Below, in pieces: positions 1 to 28,266 of a stretch of DNA of 52,569 bases. Below the pieces are notes generated by a model, which saw only the letters and a list, made by a program, of their open reading frames with translations, did not search any database and was not told where the DNA came from. A program made the position numbers and the translations under genes. Source of the stretch: a virus (taxonomy: Duplodnaviria > Caudoviricetes); the IMG/VR virus record IMGVR_UViG_3300020445_001331, positions 1 to 52,569 of that record; one strand, given 5' to 3'. Positions within the stretch are counted from its first letter, which is position 1, and each line of letters starts with the position of its first letter.

Positions 1-84
1 TATATTTTTCAACCATCTTTTAATCTTCCAACCTGTTATCCACATACAATTCCATATTCTTACTTTAATAATCCATAGCTTCAT
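1..84 (-). CDS. Partial ORF (MKLWIIKVRIWNCMWITGWKIKRWLKNI...), runs off the window start
   Basis: ATG at 84 overlaps the TGA of 81..737 (ATGA); frame is open to position 1; not in the ORF track. Confidence 0.5.
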   Translation of the reverse strand, partial: MKLWIIKVRIWNCMWITGWKIKRWLKNI

Positions 85-737
85 AGTAAATCCTCCGTCC
101 ATACTTTTCCATAGAGATGGATACGATCTGTACTGCCATTGTTTTCCACACTATGTGGAAGAGTTGTATTAACAAGATATGCCCAACCAGGTTCCATATG
201 AACTTCTTCTCCATCTATAATCCAATTACTATTAGGATTTGTATAGATAGGTATATGAACTCTAACTTTATCTGGGCTGTCTTGGTGTGTAATTAATTTA
301 GTGCCTGGCTTATGTATTGTTACTAACCACTTCTTACTACGTAAATGTAAATTTTCAACAAGCTCTAATCCGTAACCTGTAAAACATTTACGAGGATTAA
401 GTTCGTCATTATCATTATCTTTGTATTCGTCTTTTGCCATACCTTGTTCAAAAGGTTTAGGACCTTCGCTATCATCATTCCAACAAAGTGTATAGTAAGC
501 ATTATCTTCTGGCAAGTAATGTCCTGTCTTTGCTTCAGGATCACTTATAGGTTCTTTCCATACGTGATGATTTTCTCCTATAACAAACTTCCAGTCAGAG
601 TAGTTTTGTTCAAGGTCTTCAAACCATTCCTGTATTTTTCCTGGATCTACTCTCCACAGCTTTTGAACTTTAAACCCTAAATCAACGGGTTCATGTTTTT
701 CAATATACCGTTTGAAAGGTTGGGTGTTTTGTTCCAT
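81..737 (-). CDS. AspH-like Fe(II)/2-oxoglutarate-dependent hydroxylase
   Basis: HxD...H triad: LITHQDS...RVHIPIYTN...PHSVENNGSTDRIHL. Confidence 0.8.
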   Translation of the reverse strand: MEQNTQPFKRYIEKHEPVDLGFKVQKLWRVDPGKIQEWFEDLEQNYSDWKFVIGENHHVWKEPISDPEAKTGHYLPEDNAYYTLCWNDDSEGPKPFEQGMAKDEYKDNDNDELNPRKCFTGYGLELVENLHLRSKKWLVTIHKPGTKLITHQDSPDKVRVHIPIYTNPNSNWIIDGEEVHMEPGWAYLVNTTLPHSVENNGSTDRIHLYGKVWTEDLL

Positions 738-2265
738 TTGTGTTCCTTATACTTTCTCTTAAATCTATTGCAACGTAATCGTGTCCGTACAATATTAAAT
801 CATCTGGCACTAGTGACCTAAATTTTTTAAATTTATTTTCTAATACTTCTGGTTCTAAATTCCAATGTAACATTTCGCTTGACCAAATGTTAGTAGTCCA
901 TAATACTTTGTTGCCTTGGTGTGCATTTATTATATGAAATAAGTTTTCAGGTTCATTAACAATATCTATTTTATAATAAGAATGATCTAGCTGTACATAC
1001 CTATCCCATAGCTGTTTAAATGCTTCTCTACCGCCGTGTTCTTCAACTTCTTGTAGCCAAAATGACTCGTAATTGCCTCTATACGTTGAGCTGAAGTTAT
1101 ACTTTAGGTCGTGTTCCAGGAGCCAATGGTGTAAATCGTAACCATCCCACGTCTCTATTAAGTCTCTTTTGTATAATAAACTAGCATCACACCAATCAAA
1201 GTAGTGTACATGAGTGCCTGGGTGCTCCATTGTACGGTCATGAAACCTATTTGCATTTAAAATAGCAAGTGGTTTAAATCCTGCGGCCGCACTAAACAAA
1301 TGTTCAATAGGTTGTGTAGTACGTATGCCTTCTCCTGAAAGTGTTTCTGTATTAAACGCATAAACACGATTCTTTTCAATCTTTTCTTGGTAATCTAGTT
1401 TGCGTAACCAAGCCTTTTGACTTTGATTTAATTCATCTACTTGCCAATAATCTTTTTGTACCCAACTCTTTGATAGTACATCTGTTTTATTATAAGGATA
1501 TAAAAATATTTTACAAGCTCTCATATCACTTGTAAGGTTATCTATAGTAATATTATTTTTACAAGCCAAATCAATCCAATTAGACCCATCTGAAGTTACC
1601 TCCCATTCCTGTTCGCCTTTTTCTATATCTGCTCTAACCCACGCAGGAGTATAATCTGCGTGAACTGTTTCTTTGCTGAATACAAAATTACTTAATACAG
1701 GCTTTCTATCTTTATAAACACCTAGTTCATCAAACTCTGGACTACCTAGTTCTTGCCATTTCTTTAAATTTACAAATAGATATTGTCTATGTAACCCTGG
1801 ATATGAACCTTCTGTTAAATAATGCTGTTTCTTTTTATCCATGATATGCCCTATAACAAAGAAGTTAGGATTTCCTTCTGCATATTTTAAACTTTGATCT
1901 AAAAGACTTGGTCCTCTAGTAAGTAATAAGCCTTGTGCGGCAATCATACAGTATTCTTTATTTTCTTTTATAGCATTTTCTAAAATAGTCTTTACACTAT
2001 TACTAAAACCAACGTACTTACAATAGCCCATCTTAATCATACGATTAATATAAAAGTATGTCATATCAAAGCAACGTTTTTGTACAAATTTATTTGGGAT
2101 ATCTCTTGAAATGTCTAGTATACCGATAGCAACTTTGTTACCTACATTAAGAGTATCATAGTATCTATCTACAGTAACACTATTCCAGTCTTTTAGGATA
2201 GACATATTGTCCGCTACAATACCTCCTCTTGGGTATCTCTCGTCTGCTGTTGGAAATCTTTCCAT
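700..2265 (-). CDS. Hypothetical protein (521 aa), probably an enzyme
   Basis: Long ORF with SD AGAGGA, start 1 nt after the upstream stop; no motif I can confidently name. Confidence 0.75.
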   Translation of the reverse strand: MERFPTADERYPRGGIVADNMSILKDWNSVTVDRYYDTLNVGNKVAIGILDISRDIPNKFVQKRCFDMTYFYINRMIKMGYCKYVGFSNSVKTILENAIKENKEYCMIAAQGLLLTRGPSLLDQSLKYAEGNPNFFVIGHIMDKKKQHYLTEGSYPGLHRQYLFVNLKKWQELGSPEFDELGVYKDRKPVLSNFVFSKETVHADYTPAWVRADIEKGEQEWEVTSDGSNWIDLACKNNITIDNLTSDMRACKIFLYPYNKTDVLSKSWVQKDYWQVDELNQSQKAWLRKLDYQEKIEKNRVYAFNTETLSGEGIRTTQPIEHLFSAAAGFKPLAILNANRFHDRTMEHPGTHVHYFDWCDASLLYKRDLIETWDGYDLHHWLLEHDLKYNFSSTYRGNYESFWLQEVEEHGGREAFKQLWDRYVQLDHSYYKIDIVNEPENLFHIINAHQGNKVLWTTNIWSSEMLHWNLEPEVLENKFKKFRSLVPDDLILYGHDYVAIDLRESIRNTNGTKHPTFQTVY

Positions 2266-2266
2266 A

Positions 2267-2962
2267 CTATCCTCTATTCGTATAGTAACTTTGTCTTAAT
2301 ACATAAAAGAAATCTCTAATTCTTCTTCCTAATTCGTAATGTATAATCATATGTATACGAGGTTTATCACTTCTATTCCATACACTATGAACGTTACTAA
2401 TATCCATTAAGAAAGCACTACCTTCATCTTCAAAAGGAACTTTGCCTCCGTCTTTAAAAACAAAATCACAACCTTCTGGATTGTTTAAACTAATATTGCA
2501 AACACTTAAACGTTTTTCTGTATCGGCTCTGTCTTGATGTGGTAAAATATAACCACCTGGTTCAAGTAACATAAAACGTACACGATTTAAATACTCTGCT
2601 GGCCATACATCTGTTAAAAACTTTTTAGTTTCAGGACATTTATCTGCTACCCAAGTCCAATCTAATTCTTTAATAGAGTCTTTTCTATCTCCATAGCTAT
2701 CAAGACTTTGTGTATCTTCATTTAATCCGTGTAGTGTTAAACTTTTCCACCCTTTACCATATTCTTCTCTATGTTCATGAAATGAATCAAGTAAATTTTC
2801 AGCTTCAATATACATACCTTTCCAAGGTTGGTTATCTAAAGCACTTAAACGGAAATAAGGCCACTCACTTTCCATAACAATCCATTTAGGATCAAACTGT
2901 TCTGGATACTTTTGAGCTTTTATTTCACCGTTTGTATCATGAAATTGGTGTAGTTCTTGCAT
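2267..2962 (-). CDS. AspH-like Fe(II)/2OG hydroxylase (231 aa; start revised to 2962)
   Basis: RVRFMLLEPGGYILPHQD...HSVWNRSDKPRIHMIIH; the longer 3211 start would overlap the divergent rSAM gene. Confidence 0.82.
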   Translation of the reverse strand: MQELHQFHDTNGEIKAQKYPEQFDPKWIVMESEWPYFRLSALDNQPWKGMYIEAENLLDSFHEHREEYGKGWKSLTLHGLNEDTQSLDSYGDRKDSIKELDWTWVADKCPETKKFLTDVWPAEYLNRVRFMLLEPGGYILPHQDRADTEKRLSVCNISLNNPEGCDFVFKDGGKVPFEDEGSAFLMDISNVHSVWNRSDKPRIHMIIHYELGRRIRDFFYVLRQSYYTNRG

Positions 2963-2967
2963 ACGTA

Positions 2968-3016
2968 TATTTACCGAGCCAGGGTAGTTAAATACTCGGT
3001 TAATGGGCGGTAAATA
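2968..3016. promoter_or_regulatory. Back-to-back late-promoter-like CGGTAAATA motifs (9-bp perfect inverted repeat)
   Basis: TATTTACCG 2968-2976 and CGGTAAATA 3008-3016, with 5 nt and 4 nt between motif and ATG (2962 minus, 3021 plus); resembles T4 late TATAAATA. Confidence 0.6.
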
Positions 3017-3020
3017 CAGT

Positions 3021-4016
3021 ATGCCATTCTTACGAGTAAAGGACATAGATACTGTAACAGTAGATTTCACTAGCCATTGTAATGCTATGTGTGGTAATTG
3101 TAGCAGAAACATAGGAGGAACTGAAGTAAACCCTAGAATGCCTCTTGAACATATGAGACCCAATACGTGGAAACACTTATTCACAGAAGAAGTATGCGAG
3201 AATATAAACAAGATTGTTTTAAATGGAGCATACGGAGATCCGTTGCGTAATCCTTATATCTTTGAATGTATTAATTATTTAAAAAATTATAAAATGCCAG
3301 AAATTAATATACATACAAACGGGGGCATGAATGGCCCTAAATTTTTTGCGGAACTGGCAGAGTGTTTAAAACCTTTTCCTTTTCCAACTCATGTAGTGTT
3401 TAGTATTGATGGGTTAGAAGATACTAATCACTTATATAGAAGAAATGTGTTATGGCATAAAGTTATGGAAAACGCACAGGCATTTATAGACGCAGGTGGA
3501 TTAGCACGTTGGCGTATGTTAGTATTCAAACATAATGCACACCAATTAGAAGAGTGCGAAGCATTAAGTAAAAAGATGGGCTTTGGAAAGTTTGATATTA
3601 ATGGCGGTTATAGTTTTAGTGCATTAGATAGTGTAGTTAGTGAAGCAGTAGAAAAGTTTAAAGCAAGTAAAAAAGATCAAGCACGTACTATTACATACGA
3701 CGATAAACATTTAGATAATGTAGAACGTATGAAAGGGTTAGTTGAAAAAGGATTTGAGAATAGCACTATTAAATGTCAGTGGCAAATAAAGAATAAGGTA
3801 CAAGTTAGTCATATGGGAGAAGTATTTCCTTGCTGTCATACACTAGCTGATAGGTATCCTAAAGATGTTGATAGTATATATGGAAAAGAAGTAAACACTA
3901 TTAGTTGGTTAAACGTAAACGATATGCCATTAGTTGATATATTAGAAAGTAATACATTAACAGATCCAGCTGATAAAAGATTTAAACTATGTGAGGTAAC
4001 TTGCGGTGAAGTGTAA
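3021..4016 (+). CDS. Radical SAM protein with C-terminal SPASM/twitch-like Cys motif (start revised to 3021)
   Basis: CNAMCGNC; NGAYGDP; HTNGG; FSIDGL; C-terminal C...VFPCC...CEVTC; paralog of 15243..16235. Confidence 0.88.
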   Translation: MPFLRVKDIDTVTVDFTSHCNAMCGNCSRNIGGTEVNPRMPLEHMRPNTWKHLFTEEVCENINKIVLNGAYGDPLRNPYIFECINYLKNYKMPEINIHTNGGMNGPKFFAELAECLKPFPFPTHVVFSIDGLEDTNHLYRRNVLWHKVMENAQAFIDAGGLARWRMLVFKHNAHQLEECEALSKKMGFGKFDINGGYSFSALDSVVSEAVEKFKASKKDQARTITYDDKHLDNVERMKGLVEKGFENSTIKCQWQIKNKVQVSHMGEVFPCCHTLADRYPKDVDSIYGKEVNTISWLNVNDMPLVDILESNTLTDPADKRFKLCEVTCGEV

Positions 4017-5076
4017 GTATTTAGAACATCAAATTTGTACAAGATCAGACGGTCAATATCGTTTGTGTTGTACTTCCTTTGAACCTGATAACAAAGAAAC
4101 CATATACACTCATACACCACAACAATGGCACGATAGTGATTTCCATAGAGGTGTGCGTGAACAATTAGATCGTGATGAATGGCCTGAGGCTTGTATTAAA
4201 TGTCAAGAAGCAGAAGAAAAAGGTTTAGAGAGTATGCGTACTAAAGTTAAAGAAGATGGTACTAGATACGTTAGAAATCACTTTGGTCCAGGACTTTCGC
4301 ATTGGGATCTTCGCTTTGGTAATAGTTGTAACTTAAGATGTATTAGTTGTTTCCATTTATCTAGTAGTAGTTTAGCCGAAGAGGCTATTGCTATGCAGAA
4401 AGCAGGAGTGCAACCACTTCATATGCCTTTATTAGATGAGCCTAACTTTAATTGGGTTACTGAAGAAACATTAAAACACTTTGAAAACTTGCCTGATATG
4501 AAAGAAGTTTACTTAACAGGTGGCGAACCTATGATGGTTAAACACTTACCTGGCTTTTTAGATAGACTAGATCCTACTGTATGTGTAAGATTTAATACTA
4601 ATGGAACATTATGGAACCCCAAAGTATCAAAGATATTAAAAAAGTTCCGTACAGTAATTATGAGTATGAGTATTGATGCAGTAGATCATAAAATAGATTA
4701 TATTAGACACGGAAGTGATTGGGATATTATATCAGAAAATACACAAAGGTATGCAGAGTTTTGTACTGTAGATGTTACTCCAACCACTAGTGTATTAAAT
4801 GCAATATATGATGACGAAATAAGAGAGTATTGTGCAAAGAATCGTTTTAAAATTTATGATAACTTACTAATAACTCCTTATTGGTTACACGTAAGAAATG
4901 CACCTGACGAATTAAAGAAACGTTTTACAGGAAACATAGCCAAGTGGGCTGACGTTGATGCTGACCCTGAATGGCAAGATAAGTTTAGAGAATATATAAC
5001 AAAATTAGATAACTGGAGAGGTATGCATATTAAAGATTACCTACCAGAGGTAGCAAAGGCTTATGGACTTAATTAA
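4006..5076 (+). CDS. Radical SAM protein with N-terminal twitch-like domain
   Basis: N-terminal C...DGQYRLCC...CIKC, then CNLRCISC, TGGEP, NTNGT, SIDA; GTG start. Confidence 0.88.
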   Translation: MKCKYLEHQICTRSDGQYRLCCTSFEPDNKETIYTHTPQQWHDSDFHRGVREQLDRDEWPEACIKCQEAEEKGLESMRTKVKEDGTRYVRNHFGPGLSHWDLRFGNSCNLRCISCFHLSSSSLAEEAIAMQKAGVQPLHMPLLDEPNFNWVTEETLKHFENLPDMKEVYLTGGEPMMVKHLPGFLDRLDPTVCVRFNTNGTLWNPKVSKILKKFRTVIMSMSIDAVDHKIDYIRHGSDWDIISENTQRYAEFCTVDVTPTTSVLNAIYDDEIREYCAKNRFKIYDNLLITPYWLHVRNAPDELKKRFTGNIAKWADVDADPEWQDKFREYITKLDNWRGMHIKDYLPEVAKAYGLN

Positions 5077-5518
5077 AAAGAATATAGAAAAGAAACGTGA
5101 AGTTTATAAACTTGAAGATAGATATCGTAAAGTTTGGTATGATATTGATTTAGATAGATTAGAAGAACACGTTACTATATTAAATGAAGTTATTCCTGGT
5201 TATGTTTTAGACTATGGTAAAACTGAAAACAGTATGTACATAGACTATCACATTGTTCCTGGTACACCTGCCAATGAGTTTGCACATACTCCGCAGTTCA
5301 TTAAAAGGATACACGACTTTTGTGTAGAAACATTAGATCAAACAATGCCTTATGCACACTACGATTGGGTGTTAAGTAATATTATGATAGATGGCGAGAA
5401 TACATACTTTGTTGATTGGGATAACATAGGAATTTATTCGCCAGAAGAAATTAAAACAAAGTTAGAAGCAGATTTAAAATCAGCTTTTGGAGGAGCATAT
5501 GACCCCACAAGCATTTAG
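5063..5518 (+). CDS. Minimal protein-kinase-like phosphotransferase (APH/choline kinase/RIO-like fold)
   Basis: Catalytic loop HYDWVLSN (HxDxxxxN) followed by metal-binding FVDWD. Confidence 0.65.
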   Translation: MDLIKKNIEKKREVYKLEDRYRKVWYDIDLDRLEEHVTILNEVIPGYVLDYGKTENSMYIDYHIVPGTPANEFAHTPQFIKRIHDFCVETLDQTMPYAHYDWVLSNIMIDGENTYFVDWDNIGIYSPEEIKTKLEADLKSAFGGAYDPTSI

Positions 5519-9848: not shown

Positions 9849-10041
9849 AATATTTGTCGTTTCCTTTGTGCCAACCTATATCTTGTATTGCGTCTGGCTG
9901 TGAACACTTTGGACATACCCACCATTCCTCTATGTTGTCATTGGTATTTAACTCTTGTGCTACTCCTCGCCAACCACAATGGCCGCATAACCAATTCCAT
10001 ATTTGATTCATGCCTTCTGCTAATGCTACGTTGTCGTCCAT
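9841..10041 (-). CDS. Small zinc-ribbon-like protein (66 aa)
   Basis: WLCGHCG...WVCPKCS (two CxxC); ATG at 10041. Confidence 0.6.
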   Translation of the reverse strand: MDDNVALAEGMNQIWNWLCGHCGWRGVAQELNTNDNIEEWWVCPKCSQPDAIQDIGWHKGNDKYYG

Positions 10042-15166: not shown

Positions 15167-15246
15167 CTTTTCCTCGTTATTTTCTTTAGTAGCCATGTAG
15201 CAAACGCCATAATGGCCGCAACTAAGACTCCTATTCCTATTTTCAT
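15163..15246 (-). CDS. 27-aa membrane micropeptide MKIGIGVLVAAIMAFATWLLKKITRKR
   Basis: Fills the gap exactly with ATGA overlaps at both ends; hydrophobic helix plus basic tail. Confidence 0.65.
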   Translation of the reverse strand: MKIGIGVLVAAIMAFATWLLKKITRKR

Positions 15247-19876: not shown

Positions 19877-19924
19877 CTCCTACCATTAAATGCGTATATA
19901 AATATAGTAGTATTTATGGTAGGA
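19877..19924. promoter_or_regulatory. Face-to-face late-promoter-like motifs inside an inverted repeat whose arms are the two RBSs
   Basis: TATAAATA (+) 19897-19904; CATAAATA (-) 19911-19918; arms TCCTACCATTAAAT 19878-19891 and ATTTATGGTAGGA 19912-19924. Confidence 0.65.
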
Positions 19925-19932
19925 AATCTGAT

Positions 19933-22120: not shown

Positions 22121-23490
22121 GCACAATTATTAAAGAACGTTTCCAACTCTGGAAAAGCTTCAACTAAATTACAGTCCCTACGTTTATCGTGTTCTGAAAA
22201 CCAACGATGAAAATCTCTACGTGCTAGTTCTCTTTTAGCAGGTTCAAATTCTGTTGTACGCATATACTCAACTACACGTCTAAATTTTTCTACTTCTAAA
22301 CTACTAAATTTTGTTCTGTCCCTATCATCTTGATACTCGTGCATAAATTGTAAATGACTTTCCATATAAGGCATAAACTCTTTTTTAGGTAATATATTCA
22401 TATCGTACATATGAGGTTCTTTTAAGTGTGGAGTATCAAACTGTACTTTTTGCCATCTTACTTGAGGCTCTGTTATTCCATTATACTTGTAACGCCACTC
22501 TAGTATCTTTTCTAATAAGTGATTAAATCCTACTACACTAAAGATATTAAATGTAATCATAAAGATAACAGAAAAAGGAGTTTTACTTAAAAAGTAATCT
22601 AAATTCTTTTCCCATAATTCTAAGTCTAAACCTGTACGAATATACTCTGCTTTAGGACCCCAATTATCTATACTTGTATATAATTTAAAACTTTTAATAC
22701 AATTCTTTTCTTTTAATCTTAATACAGTTTCAGTTAACTTTTGTACTAATGAATGTTTGACACCCATATTACTATTAACTTCAATTTGTATATGTGGCTT
22801 TGGATCTGCTTCTAGTTTATCAAATAGTTCCCATAAACTTTTATGCATTAAAGGTTCTCCGCCAGTAATACGCAAAATGTTTAATGTCTTACTAACTTCA
22901 GGCCACCATTCCCACCATGCATCTACATATGGATTCTCTTCTTCTTTTTTATAAACTTTAAACCAATCAATATCTTGTCTATGTTTAGTAGACATACTAT
23001 ATGGTCCGTGTTGTTTTATTTCATTCCAATATCTACTTGATGCTTTAGGGTGACAATAACCGCATTTAAAGTTACACTCATTACTAAAGCTAATTTCTAT
23101 ATACTCAGGATTTACGTTTAAATCCGCACCATTTTGTTTTATTTCCGCTAGTCTTTCTTTATTATAAATGCTAGTTGTTTTAATATGTCTATCACTTACA
23201 AAGTCTTTACCCATAGCTTCAATTTTCCAACAGTAACTACAACCATCTGGCTTTTCACCACATAACATTTTTTTACGTTGGTCTTTCTTTTCTATAGTAT
23301 TATGTAAAGCACTAGGATTGTCTTTTAATTCTTCTAATGGTATAGGGTGTGGAGCAGGGTGGTAACAACTATGTGTTTCACCTGTTGCTAGATATATTGT
23401 TGTATGATGCCATTTGGCTAAACAAAAGGTAGGCGAAGTTTGCTCTTCGATTACCGGCATTAATTCTTTTATTTTTTCAAGTTCGCTCAT
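22117..23490 (-). CDS. Radical SAM protein with N-terminal twitch-like domain
   Basis: FCLAKW...HSCYHP...CSYC, CNFKCGYC, TGGEP, NSN, TSID. Confidence 0.9.
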   Translation of the reverse strand: MSELEKIKELMPVIEEQTSPTFCLAKWHHTTIYLATGETHSCYHPAPHPIPLEELKDNPSALHNTIEKKDQRKKMLCGEKPDGCSYCWKIEAMGKDFVSDRHIKTTSIYNKERLAEIKQNGADLNVNPEYIEISFSNECNFKCGYCHPKASSRYWNEIKQHGPYSMSTKHRQDIDWFKVYKKEEENPYVDAWWEWWPEVSKTLNILRITGGEPLMHKSLWELFDKLEADPKPHIQIEVNSNMGVKHSLVQKLTETVLRLKEKNCIKSFKLYTSIDNWGPKAEYIRTGLDLELWEKNLDYFLSKTPFSVIFMITFNIFSVVGFNHLLEKILEWRYKYNGITEPQVRWQKVQFDTPHLKEPHMYDMNILPKKEFMPYMESHLQFMHEYQDDRDRTKFSSLEVEKFRRVVEYMRTTEFEPAKRELARRDFHRWFSEHDKRRDCNLVEAFPELETFFNNCA

Positions 23491-24377
23491 CTACCTAATA
23501 CACGGTCAGAGTTAATGTAGACCGTTTTAAAGAATTTGCTTTGCTCTTCGTCTAGAGCTTTATTACTAATAGGTAGTCCTTGTCCTTGTAATACTTCTCC
23601 GTACTCTGCAATCATACGTTCTACGTCAAAGTCTTTAATTTCTTCCCAATATTCATTAAGCCATTTAAAATCTCTTGTTACAGAATGATCCCAATCAGTT
23701 GCTAGTATTTTTTGACAACCATCTCTTGCACCCATTATAGCATACAATCCGTTTTCAACATCTGCACCAACGTTCATCCATACAAGAAGTCTATGATAAT
23801 TTTGCCACCAAGTGTTGTTTGCAAGGTCTTCTACTTTTGCACCTCTGTTTAATGACATCTTAACACCTTCTCTAAATCCTGCTCTCCAGGCTTGATGTGG
23901 TGTTGCACTTATAATACTTGTACTAAAGTTTTCATTTAACTGATAGTAATTGTCAAAGTAACAAAACTCTATAACATTTTCATCTTTACCATCATTGTTT
24001 TCGTGTGTTTTCATATCACGAACAAAGTCTTTAGTCCACATTTTTAAACTACCATTGCCGTACTTTAATCCGTTAATGTCAATATTACCACACCAACTAA
24101 ACTGATAATCATCATCTACGCCTAGTTCGTCTAAGTCTAATACTACATCTAAAAACTTTTGATTAATAATTGTATCGCCATCTACAGTAACAAAGTGTTT
24201 TGTATCACTTAACTCTGCACAGGCTTTATGTGCCGCATCTGAACCATGTACACCATGCACACGTTTAGCCCATGGCACTTTGTTAACTAAATCAACATAG
24301 TTCTTTTCACAATTAGGTTCATCATAACTTAAAAATATAATATCCTGTTCTGCTATATTGATCTTGTTTTCACTCAT
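23487..24377 (-). CDS. GT-A-fold glycosyltransferase-like protein
   Basis: DIIFLSYDEP...AHKAC...FVTVDGD, YGNGSLK, AWRAGFREG. Confidence 0.65.
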   Translation of the reverse strand: MSENKINIAEQDIIFLSYDEPNCEKNYVDLVNKVPWAKRVHGVHGSDAAHKACAELSDTKHFVTVDGDTIINQKFLDVVLDLDELGVDDDYQFSWCGNIDINGLKYGNGSLKMWTKDFVRDMKTHENNDGKDENVIEFCYFDNYYQLNENFSTSIISATPHQAWRAGFREGVKMSLNRGAKVEDLANNTWWQNYHRLLVWMNVGADVENGLYAIMGARDGCQKILATDWDHSVTRDFKWLNEYWEEIKDFDVERMIAEYGEVLQGQGLPISNKALDEEQSKFFKTVYINSDRVLGR

Positions 24378-24961
24378 ATTATTTCCTCATACTTATAACT
24401 GTCAAACTTCTTAATAGTATACACTGAAATTGGCTCGTTGTCAAACTCAAATTTCTCGCTAAATGGTAATACAAAGTATTTTCCATCAATTAGTTTATCA
24501 AAAGAAAACTTTAATGTCTTATATAAGATATTTGGATCGTTTTTCTTTGTACAACTAAAGCTAATTGCTGAATTTGTTAAACTAATTTTTTGAGCTAATA
24601 TATTCATTTCTAAATCGCCGCCTACTGTAAACTTCCAACAAGTATCTTTAACATTTTTAGTTACTGTAATATCTGGGTTTTCTGCTTCTGCTGGTAGTTC
24701 GTGTATTAAGTCATCTACAAAGTAACTGTCTATATCATGATTAGTACGTTGTCTAAGTTCATATGTTTTAGTTCTTTTAACATAATGTACATAATAGAAG
24801 TTCATGCTTTCTTTACCTTCTATTATTCCTTTAACTTCATCGTCAGCAATAGAAATATAACTTCCTTCTGTTGGCTTTACGTTAGGTAAAGATAGTAGTT
24901 CTCCTGTTATAGGATCAAATACTGCATAACGTTCATTAACTACTGTAATAGATAGTTTCAT
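24374..24961 (-). CDS. Hypothetical protein
   Basis: 195-aa ORF with ATGA overlaps on both sides. Confidence 0.7.
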   Translation of the reverse strand: MKLSITVVNERYAVFDPITGELLSLPNVKPTEGSYISIADDEVKGIIEGKESMNFYYVHYVKRTKTYELRQRTNHDIDSYFVDDLIHELPAEAENPDITVTKNVKDTCWKFTVGGDLEMNILAQKISLTNSAISFSCTKKNDPNILYKTLKFSFDKLIDGKYFVLPFSEKFEFDNEPISVYTIKKFDSYKYEEII

Positions 24962-25893
24962 CTAAAGTCCTTTACAGTTTGTACAAAGTTTCTAACATTT
25001 TCTACAGGAGTTTCTTTATTCACTCCGTGTGCTAGATTAACTACATATGGTTTATCTTTCATTTTTTGTAGCATTGGCGTAATGTCGCCATTAACTAATA
25101 ATTCGTTAATTGGAATACCACCTTGTAATACAAGTTTAGTAGTTACATCTTCTACAGGTATGTCATCACTTAAATTAATACAATCAGGTATTACAACGTT
25201 TGCAAAATCATTTATGTTTTTACCTATTAGTCTTGGAAAAGCAATTATACTAACTTCAGGATATAACTCTCTTATATCGCTTACTATGTGTGCTGTTGGG
25301 AAATAACATAAAGTATCTAATTCTTCTTCTGTTAAATCTCCTGCCCAACTATCAAAAATTTGTATTGTATCACAACCTGCTTTTATTTGTTGTACTAAAT
25401 GTTCAACAATAAAAGGAACTAGTTTATCTACAACATTTTGATCTTTAGTTTGTGTCATATACTTACAAAGTGTATAAGGTGCTCCAGCAAATCCTATTAA
25501 ACTTTTACTACTATCTAGTTCTTGTCTAGTTTGTTTAATTGCATCATATACAGGTTGACATCTTTCTATAAAAGTTATCATATCTGTTTCAAACATTTTA
25601 TCGTAAAAAGGTCCTAGTACTGGTGCAGGAGTATAATCTAACTCTTGGCCAAGTGCATACGGAATAATAAGTATGTCAGAGAAGATTATGGCCGCATCCA
25701 TATCAAATGCTTTAATAGGTTGCATAGTTATTTCTTTTGCTTTACTTGGTGTAAGAGCCATATCTAAAAACCCATTACTGTTTTGTTTCATTTGCATATA
25801 CTCAGGCATATATCTTCCAGCCTGACGCATTAACCAAACAGGGTATAAGTTTGTTTCTCTATCTTTAATAGTTCTCTGCAATATAGTTTTCAT
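24958..25893 (-). CDS. hemE: Uroporphyrinogen III decarboxylase
   Basis: PVWLMRQAGRYMPEY signature, DAAIIFSDIL, LIGFAGAPYTL..Y, QIFDSWAG, NLAHG. Confidence 0.93.
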   Translation of the reverse strand: MKTILQRTIKDRETNLYPVWLMRQAGRYMPEYMQMKQNSNGFLDMALTPSKAKEITMQPIKAFDMDAAIIFSDILIIPYALGQELDYTPAPVLGPFYDKMFETDMITFIERCQPVYDAIKQTRQELDSSKSLIGFAGAPYTLCKYMTQTKDQNVVDKLVPFIVEHLVQQIKAGCDTIQIFDSWAGDLTEEELDTLCYFPTAHIVSDIRELYPEVSIIAFPRLIGKNINDFANVVIPDCINLSDDIPVEDVTTKLVLQGGIPINELLVNGDITPMLQKMKDKPYVVNLAHGVNKETPVENVRNFVQTVKDFR

Positions 25894-26704
25894 ATTTTTT
25901 AATTTTCTCGTCTGTTAAAAACTCTTTTTCTGTATAGTGAAAGATTCCTGACTGTAAATGATTACCTATTTTAAGTGTTAAATCATCTGTAAGGTATGAA
26001 CCTACTCTGCTACGCCAAGTAGCACTTCCATTTTTCCAACCTTGTATATGAGTTTTCATATGTGTAAACGTTGGAAACTTAACACGTTTATTTGTAATCC
26101 TATCTTCACAATCTAATATCTTTGTTACAATAGCTGTACTTGTATCTACACTTAAATATTTTTGATAGCTTTCTTTAGCAAACTTACCATAAAATAATTC
26201 CCAGTTATTCATTACAATTTCTAATAATGTATAAAACTCTTTAGCAAAGTCGCACTTTTTAAAGTAATGAAATCCTGCATATACATTAGGCAATTTATTT
26301 GCTTTGTAAGTTTTTCTATAATAGTTATCTACAACTTTCTCACCTCTGTATGTATATACATTAGAAGTATAAAACACTTCATAATTACTTAAAAAGTCCC
26401 ACCAAGTATCTAAGTTTTGTAATACAAGCATATCTGTATCTAATACAATAGTTTCATCATACGGACTTGCATGATATAACTTCCAACGATTATCTACTTT
26501 CCAATTATTGTCTTTAGCATCGTCTGACCAAGGTATAGGTTTAATAATATCAAACAATTTCTCGTACCTAGATGGCACTTTATCGTTGGTTATTAAACAA
26601 ATGTTGGCATCATTAGTAGCTTTAATACTCATAGCTAACACACACGCCTGTTGTACGTAATCGTATTCGCTATTCTGTGCTATTAATACAAATCCTCTAG
26701 TCAT
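25865..26704 (-). CDS. GT-A glycosyltransferase-like protein (GT8-like)
   Basis: GFVLIA...LAMSIK...KLYHASPYDETIVLDTDML (DxD). Confidence 0.65.
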   Translation of the reverse strand: MTRGFVLIAQNSEYDYVQQACVLAMSIKATNDANICLITNDKVPSRYEKLFDIIKPIPWSDDAKDNNWKVDNRWKLYHASPYDETIVLDTDMLVLQNLDTWWDFLSNYEVFYTSNVYTYRGEKVVDNYYRKTYKANKLPNVYAGFHYFKKCDFAKEFYTLLEIVMNNWELFYGKFAKESYQKYLSVDTSTAIVTKILDCEDRITNKRVKFPTFTHMKTHIQGWKNGSATWRSRVGSYLTDDLTLKIGNHLQSGIFHYTEKEFLTDEKIKKYENYIAENY

Positions 26705-26882
26705 TTTTACTTTCTAATACATACTTTAATGCATCTTTGCCTTTGTAACGTTTACCGCTATGAAATACATTTTCTCTTTGCCATGCCATTGCCATATTGT
26801 TTGGACAAGAACATTGGTATCTACGAACTGCATCACATCTTCTACAAAATCTTGATCTAATTCTACTGTCTACGTTATGCAC
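26697..26882 (-). CDS. Small basic Cys-rich protein (61 aa)
   Basis: CRRC...CSC; GTG start; overlaps both neighbours. Confidence 0.55.
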   Translation of the reverse strand: MHNVDSRIRSRFCRRCDAVRRYQCSCPNNMAMAWQRENVFHSGKRYKGKDALKYVLESKND

Positions 26883-27063
26883 CTATACTATCCTTTGGTT
26901 GACATTTATAAATTATACTATCCCACTTACCATCTGTTGGTATTAGTTCGTGTGCTACTTGTGAAGATATACATTTATCTTCTGATAAAAACTCTTTTAC
27001 TTCTTGCGTTACACATTTTTGAGATGTGCAAACTGATAATAATAAAACCCAGATTATTTCCAT
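26875..27063 (-). CDS. Small protein with hydrophobic N-terminus and 4 Cys (62 aa)
   Basis: MEIIWVLLLSVC...C...C...C; SD AGGAG; TAATG coupling. Confidence 0.6.
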   Translation of the reverse strand: MEIIWVLLLSVCTSQKCVTQEVKEFLSEDKCISSQVAHELIPTDGKWDSIIYKCQPKDSIGA

Positions 27064-27920
27064 TACAACACTCCTCTATCTATAATACGATTTAAACTAA
27101 ACTTATTCATTACGTGTATATTACTACCTTTTATACGCAATGGTGTGTATTCACCTAGGTGTGCTTCTTTTTCTAACAAAAAGAAAAAGTTATCACCTTC
27201 TAAATCCCATAAAATATCTCTATCAGCAGTATAATACTTTGTGCCTGGCATCTTATGAGCAAAATCTCCTGATTGATAACCATTCATTATATGTATTGCT
27301 ACACTAAACACATGGTCATTACGGAAAAGACCTCTATTGACTTGGAATATACTATTATAGTGATCCCAGTTTTCCTGAATGTGTTTTGTTAAATCAAAAA
27401 ATATTTTGTTTTCTGGTGACTTTCTAAAAAATATAACAGTAGCCCAATAAAAGTCTACACTTGTATCACTTATTTTTTGAAACTCATCTGTATTACGATG
27501 ACCAGTTAAGTCTTTTGCATCTTTAAATATTAAAAAATCATGATCTTGAGTAAAACAATGTTTGAATAAACTGTTTGCTATAATGTAATCACTATCTAAC
27601 AGTATTGTTTCATCATATGGACTTAACTCATATGCGTTTGTACGCATATCGTTTTTAAATTGTAAATGTTTTGCTACACCAGATCCATCAAAGTATCTTT
27701 TAGTAGTTGAGTTTGTTGTAAAAGGAACTTCTATTACTTGATCAAATACTTCTTTGTAATCTTTGTATTCGTTTTTAAGATATTCTATGCTATCAGTAAC
27801 GATAGTTGTAGGAATGTCTAAATATTTTTTGATTCTTTTTGCTGAATAGTGAGCTTGTTTAATATAATCAATTTGTGCGTTATTCCTTGCAAAAATTAAT
27901 GCACCTTTACTCTTCGTCAT
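27063..27920 (-). CDS. GT-A glycosyltransferase-like protein, paralog of 25865..26704
   Basis: GALIFA...AYELSPYDETILLDSDY...RND. Confidence 0.65.
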   Translation of the reverse strand: MTKSKGALIFARNNAQIDYIKQAHYSAKRIKKYLDIPTTIVTDSIEYLKNEYKDYKEVFDQVIEVPFTTNSTTKRYFDGSGVAKHLQFKNDMRTNAYELSPYDETILLDSDYIIANSLFKHCFTQDHDFLIFKDAKDLTGHRNTDEFQKISDTSVDFYWATVIFFRKSPENKIFFDLTKHIQENWDHYNSIFQVNRGLFRNDHVFSVAIHIMNGYQSGDFAHKMPGTKYYTADRDILWDLEGDNFFFLLEKEAHLGEYTPLRIKGSNIHVMNKFSLNRIIDRGVL

Positions 27921-28266
27921 GTTCTACCAACCCGGAGACCTTACGTTTAGATCTAAGTTTTTCATACTCCGTTTGGTATTCGTTTGCTGATACAAAATAT
28001 ATATTCATAATATCATCGAGAAATTCATTTAAATCTTTAATTCGAATGGGAGTATCGTTATCATCGATAATAACAATATTATTAGTATCGTCTTTTTCGC
28101 ACAGCATACCAACGAAAGTTAAAAGTTCTTGTGTTACAGAAAACTGACCTCCATTAAAATAATGGATTCTAGCTTCATAGAACTTTTCTTTAAGCACTCT
28201 TTTTTGGTTATTAAGAGTAACCATGTAATTAGAAAAATCTAAGGCTTTTTTTAAACGTTCGTCCAT
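27907..28266 (-). CDS. Hypothetical protein
   Basis: 119 aa with SD AGGAG; first gene after the 28267-28322 gap. Confidence 0.75.
   Translation of the reverse strand: MDERLKKALDFSNYMVTLNNQKRVLKEKFYEARIHYFNGGQFSVTQELLTFVGMLCEKDDTNNIVIIDDNDTPIRIKDLNEFLDDIMNIYFVSANEYQTEYEKLRSKRKVSGLVEHDEE

What the first reader, a model, noticed from the sequence alone, without database searches (positions are those of the whole stretch)
81..28266. 28-kb phage-encoded radical-SAM/oxygenase/glycosyltransferase cluster attached to the tail-baseplate module
Seen: about 35 tightly overlapping genes encode 8 rSAM enzymes, 3 Fe/2OG hydroxylases, 2 nucleotide-sugar dehydrogenases, about 5 GT-like proteins, 2 SGNH proteins, an MTase, an SDR and a kinase. 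They lie directly downstream of and mostly co-oriented with the fibre genes, and share their TAAATA motif. Known: twitch-type rSAMs such as BtrN and NeoN act on sugars or aminocyclitols, and giant eukaryotic viruses glycosylate their own virions. Inference: a late pathway builds and heavily tailors a glycan or other modification, most plausibly on the Ser/Thr-rich virion proteins, alternatively on the host surface or on DNA. I know of no characterised phage pathway of this complexity.
Basis: partly seen in the sequence, partly recalled or inferred. Interest (0 to 1): 0.9.

Follow-up and report, generated by a model that had tools for sequence, protein, structure and literature searches.

The report
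Radical-SAM enzyme module between phage fibre genes
A family of very large ocean phages carries, wedged between its tail-fibre genes, a conserved block of about 35 kb of unusual enzymes whose closest cellular counterparts are in predatory Bdellovibrio-like bacteria; it probably builds or decorates a sugar-containing surface structure, but its product is unknown.

Summary
The cluster is real and is not a chimera. In 81-28266 I count 31 genes. Eight are radical-SAM enzymes with CX3CX2C, and four of these are NF033640 'N-terminal twitch' members.

The block keeps its order next to the fibre genes in 49 of 54 related IMG/VR loci. It is also present in a 268-kb relative, where it runs on for about 35 kb to a second fibre gene. 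A mini-version sits beside the fibre genes of the cultured Ralstonia phage RsoM2USA.

A TAAATA element lies at a fixed distance before both fibre and cluster operons in 201 of 203 upstream regions. This argues for co-regulation.

A five-gene core (three rSAM, one MTase-like, one GT-A-fold) recurs in Bdellovibrionota genomes, which hold 7-16 N-twitch rSAMs each.

HemC and HemE are portable tetrapyrrole genes, not core parts.

GT calls are only partly supported: GT-A fold for g20/g26 and a weak GT8 signal for g29/g30. SGNH, SDR and kinase calls are sub-threshold.

Best reading is a late glycoconjugate-tailoring pathway, most likely acting on virion fibres (about 0.4). The product is unknown.

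The parts
81..737 (-). g01, cupin Asp/Asn-beta-hydroxylase-like Fe(II)/2OG oxygenase
   Evidence: PF05118 47.4 bits against cut-off 22.6
700..2265 (-). g02, unknown 521-aa partner of the hydroxylase; the C-terminal half may be MTase-like
   Evidence: No Pfam, PHROG or NCBIfam hit. Fused to an AspH-like domain in both orders in two bacterial proteins. Poor AF2 model, pLDDT 53.8, with weak CheR/NNMT matches at E 3e-3 or worse
2267..3211 (-). g03, Asp/Asn-beta-hydroxylase-like oxygenase
   Evidence: PF05118 54 bits. The TTG start overlaps g04, so the true start is probably further in: relatives match 245 of 314 aa
3003..4016 (+). g04, radical SAM with C-terminal SPASM
   Evidence: CNAMCGNC; PF04055 32.6 bits and PF13186 23.3 bits
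4006..5076 (+). g05, N-terminal-twitch radical SAM (NF033640)
   Evidence: 228.1 bits against cut-off 170
5063..5518 (+). g06, small kinase-like protein (sub-threshold)
   Evidence: PF01636 16.1 bits against 23.2
5487..7863 (+). g07 and g08, paralogous repeat proteins (P-Y/F/R-G motif about every 45-50 aa), possibly beta-propellers; phage-only
   Evidence: No family hit. Alignment A10. Absent from the bacterial loci
7860..8978 (+). g09, N-terminal-twitch radical SAM
   Evidence: NF033640 221.9 bits
8962..9528 (-). g10, Rossmann/SDR-like (sub-threshold)
   Evidence: PF00106 17.6 bits against 26.6. Homologues in the bacterial cassettes at 27-31% identity
9507..9848 (-). g11, small hydrophobic protein; lineage-specific
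   Evidence: Sequence. Not matched in G001 or G006
10026..10967 (-). g12, radical SAM (paralogue of g19)
   Evidence: CNYRCEYC; PF04055 42 bits
10964..11614 (-). g13, putative cupin oxygenase
   Evidence: hhalign against the AspH-like set over the HxD...H region, E 8e-4, probability 24%. Bacterial homologues at 34-36% identity
11601..12929 (-). g14, N-terminal-twitch radical SAM; core-cassette member
   Evidence: NF033640 406.7 bits. 44-50% identical over full length to Bdellovibrionota proteins
12926..13762 (-). g15, HemC (hydroxymethylbilane synthase); inserted tetrapyrrole auxiliary gene
   Evidence: TIGR00212 256.8 bits against 164. Catalytic Asp, cofactor Cys and Arg pairs are aligned with 4htg. 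Absent from G006-G010
13759..14367 (-). g16, MTase-like Rossmann protein of a large family that Pfam does not recognise; core cassette
   Evidence: 1576 representative homologues. 1 of 70 scanned hits a Pfam MTase, at E 3e-4. NCBIfam hits at E 0.02-0.2
14351..15289 (-). g17, UDP-glucose/GDP-mannose dehydrogenase-like; lineage-specific
   Evidence: PF00984 92.9 bits. Not matched in G006
15243..16274 (-). g18, radical SAM with C-terminal SPASM; core cassette
   Evidence: CQAKCPMC; PF13186 27 bits. Bacterial homologues at 35-40% identity
16228..17190 (-). g19, radical SAM; core cassette
   Evidence: PF04055 52.7 bits. Bacterial homologues at 47-54% identity
17177..17860 (-). g20, GT-A-fold putative glycosyltransferase; core cassette
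   Evidence: AF2 pLDDT 89.8. Foldseek hits RmlT, WrtF, ArnC, GtrB, ppGalNAc-T and SunS at E 1.7e-5 to 2e-3, TM 0.35-0.46
17853..18752 (-). g21, unknown; N-terminal GDS motif (SGNH not verified)
   Evidence: Sequence. No hits
18749..19870 (-). g22, nucleotide-sugar dehydrogenase-like
   Evidence: PF00984 66.6 bits and PF03721 66 bits
19871..19932 (.). Divergent promoter-like region with two facing TAAATA elements (g22 and g23)
   Evidence: Conserved in 33 of 33 (g22) and 30 of 30 (g23) loci
19933..22120 (+). g23 (unknown family) and g24 (unknown, GCS motif)
   Evidence: g23: 186 homologues, none of the 120 listed with a Pfam domain. No PDB match
22117..23490 (-). g25, N-terminal-twitch radical SAM; universal core
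   Evidence: NF033640 314 bits. 36% identical to RsoM2USA ORF349
23487..24377 (-). g26, paralogue of g20 (GT-A-like); universal core
   Evidence: 29% identical to g20 in alignment A3. 42% identical to RsoM2USA ORF350
24374..24961 (-). g27, unknown, conserved
   Evidence: Present in relatives at 55-84% identity. No family hit
24958..25893 (-). g28, HemE (uroporphyrinogen decarboxylase); inserted auxiliary gene
   Evidence: PF01208 223.6 bits. TIGR01464 246.7 bits against 302.95. Motifs aligned with 2eja. Present in only 3 of 54 related loci
25865..27920 (-). g29 and g30, GT8-like putative glycosyltransferases (DxD motif)
   Evidence: Profile A4 against glycogenin-1, E about 1e-3. phrog_1903. 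35-37% identical to RsoM2USA ORF352/353
27907..28266 (-). g31, small unknown protein; first gene of the cluster operon, behind a conserved TAAATA
   Evidence: 36% identical to RsoM2USA ORF354
28323..35199 (-). g32-g36, fibre, tail-collar and virion proteins
   Evidence: PF07484 62.6 bits; PHROG tail-fibre families; phrog_11259. The RsoM2USA gene at the syntenic position (ORF356; I did not test its similarity to g36) is MS-confirmed in virions (PMC8504454)
35221..49947 (-). g37, 4908-aa giant structural protein
   Evidence: 59-85% conserved in relatives. Weakly similar RsoM2USA ORF361 is MS-confirmed in virions
49947..52142 (-). g38, baseplate wedge
   Evidence: phrog_10646, 6.8e-136. tblastn gives 93 records, the best about 30-33% identical to jumbo phages SCTP-2, Phosso, Atu_ph07 and the Rak2 group

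Best explanation
The window is part of a roughly 370-kb marine jumbo myophage. Between two sets of tail-fibre genes it carries a conserved enzyme module of about 35 kb. The window holds 28 kb of it and is cut at the left end.

Shown:
- The module is inherited together with the fibre genes across the whole clade.
- Its operons start behind the same conserved TAAATA element as the fibre genes.
- A smaller core lies beside the fibre genes of a distant cultured phage. That core is g31, two GT8-like proteins, two GT-A-fold proteins, one N-twitch radical-SAM enzyme and one MTase-like protein.
- A five-gene core (g14, g18, g19, g16, g20) also exists as a cassette in Bdellovibrionota chromosomes.

Inferred:
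- The module is expressed late, together with the fibres.
- It assembles a glycoconjugate. The nucleotide-sugar dehydrogenase-like g17/g22 would supply precursors. The GT-A-like g20/g26 and GT8-like g29/g30 would transfer sugars.
- It then tailors that glycoconjugate heavily. The radical-SAM enzymes would carry out C-H chemistry, the cupin oxygenases hydroxylation, and g16 (perhaps also g02) methylation.
- The most likely acceptor is a virion fibre or baseplate protein such as g32-g35.

HemC and HemE are separate tetrapyrrole auxiliary genes. They landed inside the module in this sub-lineage and act on host porphyrin flux, not on the module's product.
For: - Eight rSAM enzymes, four of them in NF033640.
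- Synteny with fibre genes. g31 follows g32 in 49 of 54 loci. 40 of 54 loci reach g25; 13 of the rest end earlier, and one (L080) shows g26 then g20 with no g25 match.
- Full order g31 to g01, then three more cupins, a Trp-halogenase-like gene (PF04820, 6.6e-69), an AMP-binding fragment and an Mtd_N fibre gene in G001 and G006.
- RsoM2USA ORF347-355 repeats the core next to its fibre and giant-protein genes. It was the only matching record of 50,697 in each of two searches, one with g25 and one with g30.
- TAAATA lies about 25-45 nt upstream in 48 of 49 (g31), 49 of 50 (g33), 41 of 41 (g36), 33 of 33 (g22) and 30 of 30 (g23) loci, while the flanking bases vary.
- GT-A fold for g20. GT8 signal for g29/g30. 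UDPG_MGDP_dh domains.
- HemC/HemE independence. Both are absent from G006, and HemC is absent from G006-G010. In another viral lineage, 15 of 16 loci (L150-L165) hold HemC and HemE side by side. In the one locus annotated (L156) the pair sits beside ribonucleotide reductase, with no rSAM found among its 10 scanned ORFs.
- Both enzymes keep their catalytic motifs.
Against: - No protein reaches a curated glycosyltransferase threshold. The g20 fold match has low TM (0.35-0.46), and GT8 support is E about 1e-3 over about 100 residues.
- No glycan, acceptor or timing has been observed.
- SPASM/twitch rSAMs plus Asp/Asn-hydroxylase-like cupins are at least as typical of peptide or protein modification as of sugar chemistry.
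- In Bdellovibrionota the cassette is not generally next to fibre genes. Only 1 of 6 Peptidase_S74 genes in 5 genomes is adjacent. The chemistry is therefore not intrinsically fibre-bound.
- Only RsoM2USA among cultured phages has the core, so related jumbo phages assemble virions without it.
- A paper on pelagimyophages proposes host O-antigen modification for analogous fibre-side GT genes (PMC7029224, passages seen).
Confidence: 0.4

Rival explanations
1. Host-envelope remodelling. The module modifies the infected cell's LPS, capsule or another surface glycan late in infection. This would block superinfection or stop progeny from re-adsorbing to lysing cells. The target is not the virion.
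For: - The same enzyme types (GT8-like, GT-A, nucleotide-sugar dehydrogenases; LpxO is a PF05118-type lipid-A hydroxylase, recalled) fit envelope chemistry.
- PMC7029224 (passages) describes fibre-side 'host recognition clusters' with GT8, UDP-glucose dehydrogenase and radical-SAM cassettes in pelagimyophages, and proposes O-chain modification.
- The cassette occurs in free-living Bdellovibrionota, where it would act on the cell's own surface.
Against: - The module is conserved, not hypervariable.
- Its core is shared by phages of very different habitats: marine water and the soil phage of Ralstonia. That is unexpected for host-specific glycan editing.
- Apart from the small hydrophobic g11, no transporter, flippase or polymerase family was found in any of the 37 window proteins scanned against Pfam.
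Confidence: 0.25
2. Peptide or protein maturation without a glycan focus. SPASM/twitch rSAMs, six or more Asp/Asn-hydroxylase-like cupins, a flavin halogenase and an adenylating enzyme modify a protein (cross-links, hydroxylation, halogenation). The substrate could be the fibres themselves or the g07/g08 repeat proteins. Alternatively they make a RiPP-like small molecule or cofactor, with GT and MTase steps as in mycofactocin (recalled).
For: - g04 and g18 have C-terminal SPASM domains.
- The weak NCBIfam neighbours are mostly peptide maturases and cofactor rSAMs. The best solved relative is SkfB.
- PF05118 cupins: g01 and g03 in the window, plus three more just beyond it in relatives.
- A Trp-halogenase-like gene and an AMP-binding gene lie at the far end.
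- Hydroxylase-g02 fusions occur in both orders in bacteria.
Against: - No conserved precursor-like small ORF. The two larger intergenic gaps are lineage-specific.
- No RRE/PqqD-type or peptidase family was found.
- All NCBIfam peptide-maturase scores are far below their cut-offs.
- g07/g08 are missing from some relatives that keep the rSAMs.
Confidence: 0.2
3. Modified-tetrapyrrole pathway. HemC and HemE feed a porphyrinogen to rSAM enzymes acting like HemN, AhbC/D or NirJ.
For: - HemC sits inside the rSAM cassette between g14 and g16.
- There are weak NirJ/AhbD hits among many others.
- PMC7029224 reports HemC with a 'coproporphyrinogen oxidase' in one pelagimyophage.
Against: - The rSAM module exists without HemC or HemE in G006, in RsoM2USA and in the bacterial loci.
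- HemC-HemE pairs occur elsewhere with no match to any of this cluster's rSAMs.
- NirJ/Ahb scores are 17-33 bits against cut-offs of 500-650.
- No HemB, HemD, HemF or HemH was found in the window.
Confidence: 0.05
4. DNA hypermodification (glycosylated or otherwise decorated bases).
For: Phage GTs and rSAMs are known in DNA modification pathways (recalled; Pyle et al. 2024 is cited in PMC12619734, seen).
Against: - The module lies between fibre genes behind the fibre-type promoter element.
- No hydroxymethylase, nucleotide kinase or DNA-binding family was found in the window.
- The cassette is also chromosomal in bacteria.
Confidence: 0.04
5. Assembly chimera of phage and bacterial DNA.
For: Zero PHROG hits for the first 10 cluster proteins tested. 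No DNA match to known phages.
Against: - The same junction and order appear in dozens of contigs from different samples, including contigs of 71, 125, 185, 186 and 268 kb.
- GC is uniform at 0.30-0.37.
- The promoter motif is shared across the junction.
Confidence: 0.01

Closest known systems
'Host recognition cluster' of pelagimyophages and cyanomyophages (Zaragoza-Solas et al. 2020, PMC7029224; passages read)
   Same: It is a large block beside the tail-fibre genes of marine myophages. It holds glycosyltransferases (GT8), UDP-glucose dehydrogenase, radical-SAM cassettes and Asp/Asn-beta-hydroxylases. One ecotype has HemC.
   Different: That region is described as hypervariable and sits in T4-like phages of about 150-200 kb. 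Here the block is conserved in order across a jumbo-phage clade down to about 40% identity. It is dominated by N-twitch rSAMs and has a cellular counterpart. g14 found only 3 weak matches (23-25% identity) in 50,697 phage records, and g25 and g30 found only RsoM2USA.
Ralstonia phage RsoM2USA ORF347-355 (MG752970; PMC8504454, passages read)
   Same: It has the same core order next to the fibre and giant structural genes: homologues of g31, g30, g29, g26, g25, g20 and g16 at 30-42% identity. The phage is cultured, and its neighbours ORF356 and ORF361 are MS-confirmed virion proteins.
   Different: It has only about 8 genes and one rSAM. It has no cupins, HemC/E, dehydrogenases or g07/g08. All of these ORFs are annotated as hypothetical in the record. 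In the passages of the paper that I searched they do not appear among the ORFs given a function, and 'radical' occurs 0 times.
N-twitch radical-SAM islands of Bdellovibrionota (uncharacterised; NCBIfam NF033640)
   Same: Homologues of g14 (44-50%), g19 (47-54%), g18 (35-40%), g20/g26 (36-44%) and g16 (31-40%) are clustered. Homologues of g13, g10, g12, g25, g02 and g03 lie nearby.
   Different: The islands are chromosomal. They hold 7-16 N-twitch copies per genome in islands of up to about 36 kb. They have no homologues of g07/g08, g21, g23 (beyond one weak partial match), g24, g27 or g29-g31. They are not generally next to fibre genes.
Virion glycosylation of mycobacteriophages (Freeman et al. 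2023; seen only as a citation) and of chloroviruses (recalled)
   Same: Virus-encoded GTs placed with the structural genes decorate virion proteins.
   Different: Those systems use a few GTs. None is reported with radical-SAM, cupin or halogenase tailoring (recalled). No glycan has been shown here.
Twitch/SPASM radical-SAM enzymes with solved structures (SkfB, MoaA, viperin, BlsE)
   Same: Shared radical-SAM core and auxiliary Cys-rich domain.
   Different: The auxiliary domain is N-terminal here. Similarity is limited to the core (5e-10 at best).

Membership tests
Radical SAM superfamily (PF04055) | CX3CX2C cluster-binding motif, and a Pfam score above the gathering cut-off | tested here: met
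   8 of the 38 window proteins examined have the motif. All 8 score 32.6-52.7 bits against 29.5
NF033640 N-terminal-twitch radical SAM | Whole-protein score at or above 170 bits, covering the model end to end | tested here: met
   g05 228.1, g09 221.9, g14 406.7 and g25 314.0 bits, each spanning the 398-position model nearly end to end (from position 1-5 to 396-397). g04, g12, g18 and g19 score 19.9-45.6 bits and are not members
SPASM domain (PF13186) | Score above 21.5 bits | tested here: met
   g04 23.3 and g18 27.0 (C-terminal); g14 34.9 (N-terminal). g09 scores 20.1, just below
   Profile A1 against all PDB chains lists SkfB, MoaA, viperin, the tetraether synthase and BlsE. No BtrN-type chain appears at E <= 0.1
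HemC, hydroxymethylbilane synthase (TIGR00212) | Equivalog cut-off; catalytic Asp, cofactor Cys and substrate Arg residues | tested here: met
   256.8 bits against 164. In the alignment to 4htg the KD(L/V)P Asp, the RR and RGN..TR Arg motifs and the LDG.C Cys are kept (residue roles recalled)
HemE, uroporphyrinogen decarboxylase | Pfam PF01208 cut-off; NCBIfam equivalog cut-off; active-site motifs | tested here: inconclusive
   PF01208 223.6 bits against 23.9 is met. TIGR01464 246.7 bits against 302.95 is not met. MRQAGRY, FSDIL, GAP.TL, FDSW and NL.HG are aligned with 2eja (roles recalled)
Asp/Asn beta-hydroxylase-like cupins (PF05118) | Pfam cut-off of 22.6 bits | tested here: met
   g01 47.4 and g03 54.0 bits. 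Three more lie just outside the window in G001: 22.8, 36.7 and 37.0 bits. g13 has no Pfam hit, only hhalign E 8e-4
UDP-glucose/GDP-mannose dehydrogenase | N-terminal NAD domain, central domain and C-terminal UDP-binding domain | tested here: inconclusive
   The central domain is met in g17 (92.9) and g22 (66.6). The N domain is met in g22 (66.0) but not in g17 (24.0 against 27). No C-terminal-domain hit is listed for either
Glycosyltransferase family 8 | Pfam or profile match; DxD motif in a GT-A fold | tested here: inconclusive
   No Pfam hit. Profile A4 hits glycogenin-1/2 at E 1e-3 to 2e-2 over the first 100 positions or so. D89 and D91 are invariant in A4
GT-A fold (GT2-like) glycosyltransferase, g20/g26 | Fold match to solved GT-A enzymes; Pfam GT2 | tested here: inconclusive
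   Foldseek gives 35 matches at E <= 1e-3; all those listed are nucleotide-sugar-dependent enzymes, mostly GT-A glycosyltransferases, with probability about 1 but TM 0.35-0.46. No Pfam hit. The Atlas's nearest named cluster is GT2 at 0.87, a lead only
SGNH/GDSL hydrolase, g21 and g24 | Family profile match; the four conserved blocks | tested here: not met
   No Pfam, NCBIfam or PHROG hit. No PDB profile hit. Only an N-terminal GDS (g21) or GCS (g24) motif is seen
Hypervariable 'host recognition cluster' of marine T4-like phages | Lies beside the fibre genes; its content varies strongly between close relatives | tested here: not met
   Adjacency is met. Variability is not: gene order is kept from 98% down to about 40% identity. 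Only HemC, HemE, g17, g11 and g07/g08 vary
T4-type late promoter | TATAAATA-like element upstream of late genes; a dedicated late sigma factor | tested here: inconclusive
   A conserved TAAATA lies 24-46 nt upstream of g22, g23, g31, g33 and g36 in the window and is kept in relatives. The consensus is recalled. The sigma factor and transcript starts were not tested

The most novel reading that the evidence does not exclude
Jumbo phages and predatory Bdellovibrionota, two kinds of entity that attack Gram-negative cells from outside, share a dedicated enzyme machinery of unknown chemistry. It is based on N-twitch radical-SAM enzymes plus cupin, MTase and GT-A partners. It covalently matures the proteins with which they recognise and grip their prey, by cross-linking, hydroxylating, methylating and glycosylating the fibres. 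The 7-16 paralogues per predator genome and the 8-9 per phage would then reflect many different fibre substrates.
Probability: 0.15. Interest if true: 0.9.

Novelty: new variant of a known kind. Interest (0 to 1): 0.72.

Why it matters
This would be the most enzyme-rich structural-module accessory pathway seen in a tailed phage: eight or nine iron-sulfur radical enzymes in an ocean where iron is scarce. It is conserved across a widespread marine jumbo-phage clade, which implies strong selection.

The work links three things that had not been connected:
- an NCBIfam family with no known function (NF033640);
- large uncharacterised islands in predatory bacteria;
- phage fibre genes.

It also identifies a cultured phage and cultured Bdellovibrio isolates in which the question becomes testable.

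Separately, short-form HemC and HemE emerge as recurrent marine viral auxiliary genes for porphyrin synthesis.

Tried and rejected
- Megablast of 20 kb against 50,697 phage records found no match.
- PHROG scans: 0 hits for 10 of 10 cluster proteins in the first batch, and only marginal hits for g27, g29 and g30 in the second.
- NCBIfam on 10 unassigned proteins gave nothing below E 0.01.
- PDB profile searches for g20/g26 (A3), g16 (A5), g21 (A7), g24 (A8) and g23 (A9) gave nothing meaningful.
- The g02 structure model is poor (pLDDT 53.8). Its Foldseek matches (CheR at E 3e-3, other MTases weaker) are a lead only.
- The Atlas search for g20 returned only unnamed viral clusters.
- Transitive Pfam annotation of 70 of the 150 listed g16 homologues found no recurrent family. 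The hits on member 1 have no matched stretches and look spurious.
- The idea that g16 is HemD was rejected, because it has Rossmann/MTase-like motifs and no HEM4 hit.
- The idea of a fibre-linked cassette in bacteria is not general. One Bdellovibrio isolate has a 1355-aa Peptidase_S74 fibre-like gene at the island border. Across 5 genomes, though, only 1 of 6 S74 genes is adjacent. A BLAST of that protein found only two short matches in the other loci.
- Precursor-peptide search: the small ORFs in the 177-nt and 358-nt gaps are not conserved.
- Host inference. The closest cellular-length HemC (311 aa, 41-43% identity) includes one protein named Candidatus Pelagibacter. Word-based candidate selection and AT bias make this weak. 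HemE relatives carry no taxon names. There are no tRNAs in the window. The host stays unknown.
- RNA evidence. Two marine metatranscriptome libraries hold short 100%-identical contigs on g20, g21, g25, g26, g32 and g33 in X2, and on g32 and g33 in X1. Contigs in an RNA library do not prove transcription and say nothing on timing. Parts without cover mean nothing.
- Literature searches found no paper describing this module, NF033640 function or the Bdellovibrionota islands. The moraphage paper (PMC12619734; outline and passages) concerns another lineage and does not mention radical SAM.
- The tree is a FastTree run. I printed no support values and rooted at midpoint, so I use it only to say that g14 and g25 each sit with different bacterial sequences.

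Full report
WHAT IS IN THE WINDOW. The window is a complete public virus record of 52,569 bases with no further contigs. GC is even at 0.30-0.37. I defined 38 genes. Genes g32-g38 (28323-52142, minus strand) are phage structural genes:
- a tail-collar fibre (PF07484, 62.6 bits);
- fibre proteins sharing an N-terminal attachment region;
- phrog_11259;
- a 4908-aa giant protein;
- a baseplate wedge (phrog_10646, 6.8e-136).

The wedge protein matches 93 phage records. The best are about 30-33% identical and belong to jumbo myophages: Salicola SCTP-2, Sinorhizobium Phosso, Agrobacterium Atu_ph07 and the Rak2 group. CheckV rates related contigs of 70.7 kb and 267.8 kb as 19% and 75% complete. The genome is therefore about 360-370 kb.

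THE OBSERVATION. Genes g01-g31 fill 81-28266 with only 598 intergenic bases. 23 of the 31 are on the fibre strand.
- Eight proteins carry CX3CX2C, and all eight pass Pfam Radical_SAM.
- Four of them (g05, g09, g14, g25) are full-length members of NCBIfam NF033640, the 'twitch domain-containing radical SAM protein'. They score 222-407 bits against a cut-off of 170, and their Cys-rich auxiliary domain is N-terminal.
- g04 and g18 have C-terminal SPASM domains. g12 and g19 are a third type.
- g01 and g03 are Asp/Asn-beta-hydroxylase-like cupins. g17 and g22 have UDP-glucose/GDP-mannose-dehydrogenase domains.

- No Pfam glycosyltransferase, SGNH or methyltransferase family is hit.
- The SDR (g10) and the kinase (g06) are below threshold.
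- I could raise two GT calls. An AlphaFold model of g20 (pLDDT 89.8) matches GT-A enzymes: RmlT, WrtF, ArnC, GtrB, polypeptide GalNAc-transferases and SunS. There are 35 matches at E <= 1e-3, though TM is only 0.35-0.46. g26 is its paralogue.
- A profile of g29/g30 hits glycogenin (GT8) at E about 1e-3 across the region with the invariant DxD.
- g23, g21 and g24 stay unassigned.
- g13 aligns weakly with the cupins over the metal motif.

- g15 is HemC, above the equivalog cut-off. Its catalytic Asp, cofactor Cys and Arg pairs are aligned to a solved structure.
- g28 is uroporphyrinogen decarboxylase with its motifs intact.

NOT A CHIMERA, AND NOT HYPERVARIABLE. A scan of IMG/VR with HemC gave 15 loci. 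A scan with g32 gave 54.
- In 49 of those 54, g31 follows g32; the other 5 end there.
- 40 of 54 run on through g30, g29, g27 and g26 to the rSAM g25. Of the rest, 13 end before g25, and L080 shows g26 then g20 without a g25 match.
- Whole contigs G001 and G003 repeat the window gene for gene at 55-98% identity.
- The 267.8-kb contig G006 keeps the order g31 to g01 at about 40-90% identity.

In G001 and G006 the cluster continues beyond the window's left edge. It adds three more PF05118 cupins, a tryptophan-halogenase-like flavoenzyme (PF04820, 6.6e-69) and an AMP-binding fragment. It ends at another fibre gene (Mtd_N), followed by a DUF2201/VWA and AAA pair. The module is therefore about 35 kb and is flanked by fibre genes on both sides.

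The variable members are HemC, HemE, g17, g11 and g07/g08.
- HemC is absent from 5 of 5 more distant large contigs.
- HemE is absent from 5 of 5 nearer relatives and occurs in only 3 of the 54 loci.

SHARED PROMOTER ELEMENT. TAAATA is over-represented in the window's scarce intergenic DNA (5 of 44 occurrences in 2.3% of the sequence). It lies 24-46 nt upstream of g22, g23, g31, g33 and g36. Across relatives it is kept at that position while neighbouring bases change:
- 48 of 49 loci for g31;
- 49 of 50 for g33;
- 41 of 41 for g36;
- 33 of 33 for g22;
- 30 of 30 for g23.

It resembles the T4 late-promoter core, which I recall. I did not test the sigma factor or transcript starts. This is the best available evidence that the cluster operons and the fibre genes are co-regulated.

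A CULTURED RELATIVE. Each of two searches of 50,697 phage records, one with g25 and one with g30, matched only Ralstonia phage RsoM2USA. Its ORF354 to ORF347 are homologues of g31, g30, g29, (one unmatched ORF), g26, g25, g20 and g16 at 30-42% identity. They lie directly after a fibre gene that combines the g33-35 N-terminus with a g32-like end, and near a giant protein. The record annotates them all as hypothetical. In the passages of the paper that I searched they are not among the ORFs given a function, and the neighbours ORF356 and ORF361 were confirmed in virions by mass spectrometry (PMC8504454). Two GT8-like proteins, two GT-A-like proteins, one N-twitch rSAM, one MTase-like protein and g31 thus form a core that has stayed beside fibre genes in phages from quite different habitats.

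A CELLULAR COUNTERPART. A scan of one genome per prokaryotic species with a g14 alignment returned 55 loci. The 31 best (44-50% identity, L095-L125, most over the full length) are Bdellovibrionota, except one bin labelled Dojkabacteria. Of the 43 loci I analysed:
- 40 hold g14-like genes;
- 27 hold g19-like genes;
- 27 hold g18-like genes;
- 14 hold g16-like genes;
- 14 hold g20/g26-like genes.

These usually lie side by side. Homologues of g13, g10, g12, g25, g02 and g03 lie nearby. In the window the same five genes form the stretch g20-g14, with g17 and HemC inserted.

Five Bdellovibrionota genomes hold 7, 7, 7, 16 and 11 N-twitch rSAMs over the cut-off, partly in islands of up to about 36 kb. 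None of 14 control genomes has one.

In a FastTree tree, g14 and g25 group with different bacterial sequences (supports not examined). The paralogues therefore predate the phage-bacterium exchange.

Two bacterial proteins fuse a g02-like domain with a PF05118 cupin, in opposite orders. This ties g02 functionally to g03.

g16 belongs to a family of 1576 representative clusters that Pfam does not recognise.

Genes found only in the phages are g07/g08, g21, g23 (apart from one weak partial match), g24, g27 and g29-g31.

HEMC AND HEME. Short-form HemC (275-282 aa) occurs in several other marine viral lineages. In 15 of 16 loci of one lineage (L150-L165) it is directly followed by a HemE homologue. 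In the one such locus that I annotated (L156) the pair lies next to ribonucleotide reductase, far from any fibre gene or rSAM. Together with their patchy presence here, this makes them portable auxiliary genes for host porphyrin synthesis. They were inserted into the module and are not part of its chemistry. A pelagimyophage paper had already noted HemC in one ecotype (PMC7029224).

INTERPRETATION. What is shown:
- a conserved, fibre-flanked module rich in radical-SAM enzymes, carrying the fibres' promoter element;
- a minimal core of GT-like, N-twitch rSAM and MTase-like genes;
- an uncharacterised bacterial counterpart.

What is inferred is that the module builds and tailors a glycoconjugate late in infection. 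The most likely acceptor is a fibre or baseplate protein. These proteins contain 19-25% Ser+Thr against 8-15% in the enzymes, which is ordinary for fibres.

I give this 0.4. The alternatives:
- Host-envelope remodelling, 0.25. It fits the enzyme types and the published view of similar islands. It fits less well with conservation across phages of unrelated habitats.
- Peptide or protein maturation, or a RiPP-like product, 0.2. It fits the SPASM/twitch, cupin, halogenase and adenylation set, but lacks a precursor gene.
- A tetrapyrrole pathway. The distribution data nearly exclude it.
- DNA modification. The position of the module makes it unlikely.

NOVELTY. Fibre-side islands with GTs and radical-SAM cassettes are described for marine T4-like phages. 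Here the island is conserved and much larger. It is built around an enzyme family of unknown function and is shared with predatory bacteria. Seven literature searches found no description of it. I file it as a new variant of a known kind. If the rSAM chemistry on fibres or glycans proves real, the variant would be categorically new in mechanism.

Noticed in passing
window 35221-49947 (-): A single 4908-aa ORF (g37) lies between the baseplate wedge and the fibre genes. It is conserved at 59-85% identity in relatives, with weak similarity to the 2541-aa virion protein ORF361 of RsoM2USA.
   Followed up: partly
window 9841-10080 (-): A small ORF with two CxxC pairs (zinc-ribbon-like) lies between g12 and g11. 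The window's HemC sub-lineage also has a 358-nt gap (26705-27062) between g29 and g30. That gap is 190 nt in G001 and absent in G003.
   Followed up: partly
L016 (G001) 4546-12320; G006 178199-186002: Beyond the window's left end, relatives carry a Trp-halogenase-like flavoenzyme, a split AMP-binding enzyme, an Mtd_N-type fibre gene, and a DUF2201/VWA plus AAA pair. That pair is reminiscent of the cobT/cobS-like pairs of cyanophages (recalled).
   Followed up: partly
L150-L165, e.g. L156 7989-9802: Another marine viral lineage has HemC and HemE as adjacent genes (15 of 16 loci). In L156 they sit next to nrdA/nrdB, an SNase-like nuclease and two cell-wall hydrolases. A third group (L176-L194) has HemC alone.
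   Followed up: partly
G011-G015 (handles), e.g. G014:C1 792-803 kb and 1068-1092 kb: Bdellovibrionota genomes of 1.9-3.9 Mb hold 7-16 NF033640 radical-SAM genes each. Tandem arrays reach eight copies within about 11 kb (G014, 792-803 kb). None of 14 control genomes has one over the cut-off.
   Followed up: partly
L109 17251-21318 (-): In Bdellovibrio sp. HCB2-146 a 1355-aa Ser/Thr/Gly/Asn-rich protein with a Peptidase_S74 chaperone domain (phage-fibre-like) sits at the edge of the rSAM island. This adjacency was not seen in the four other genomes.
   Followed up: yes
L119: A contig binned as Candidatus Dojkabacteria carries a g14 homologue (47% identity), DUF2201 and AAA homologues of the phage pair, and a 1508-aa fibre-like ORF. 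It looks like a phage contig in a bacterial bin. MAG labels (Flavobacteriaceae, Coraliomargarita) on short-form HemC may be similar mis-binnings.
   Followed up: no
window 5487-7863 compared with G001: g05, g07, g08 and g18 are 97-98% identical to G001, while neighbouring genes are 57-89% identical. This mosaic suggests recent recombination within the module.
   Followed up: no
G006 151188-152342; many loci: Most relatives have an extra N-twitch rSAM between g25 and g24 that the window lacks.
   Followed up: no
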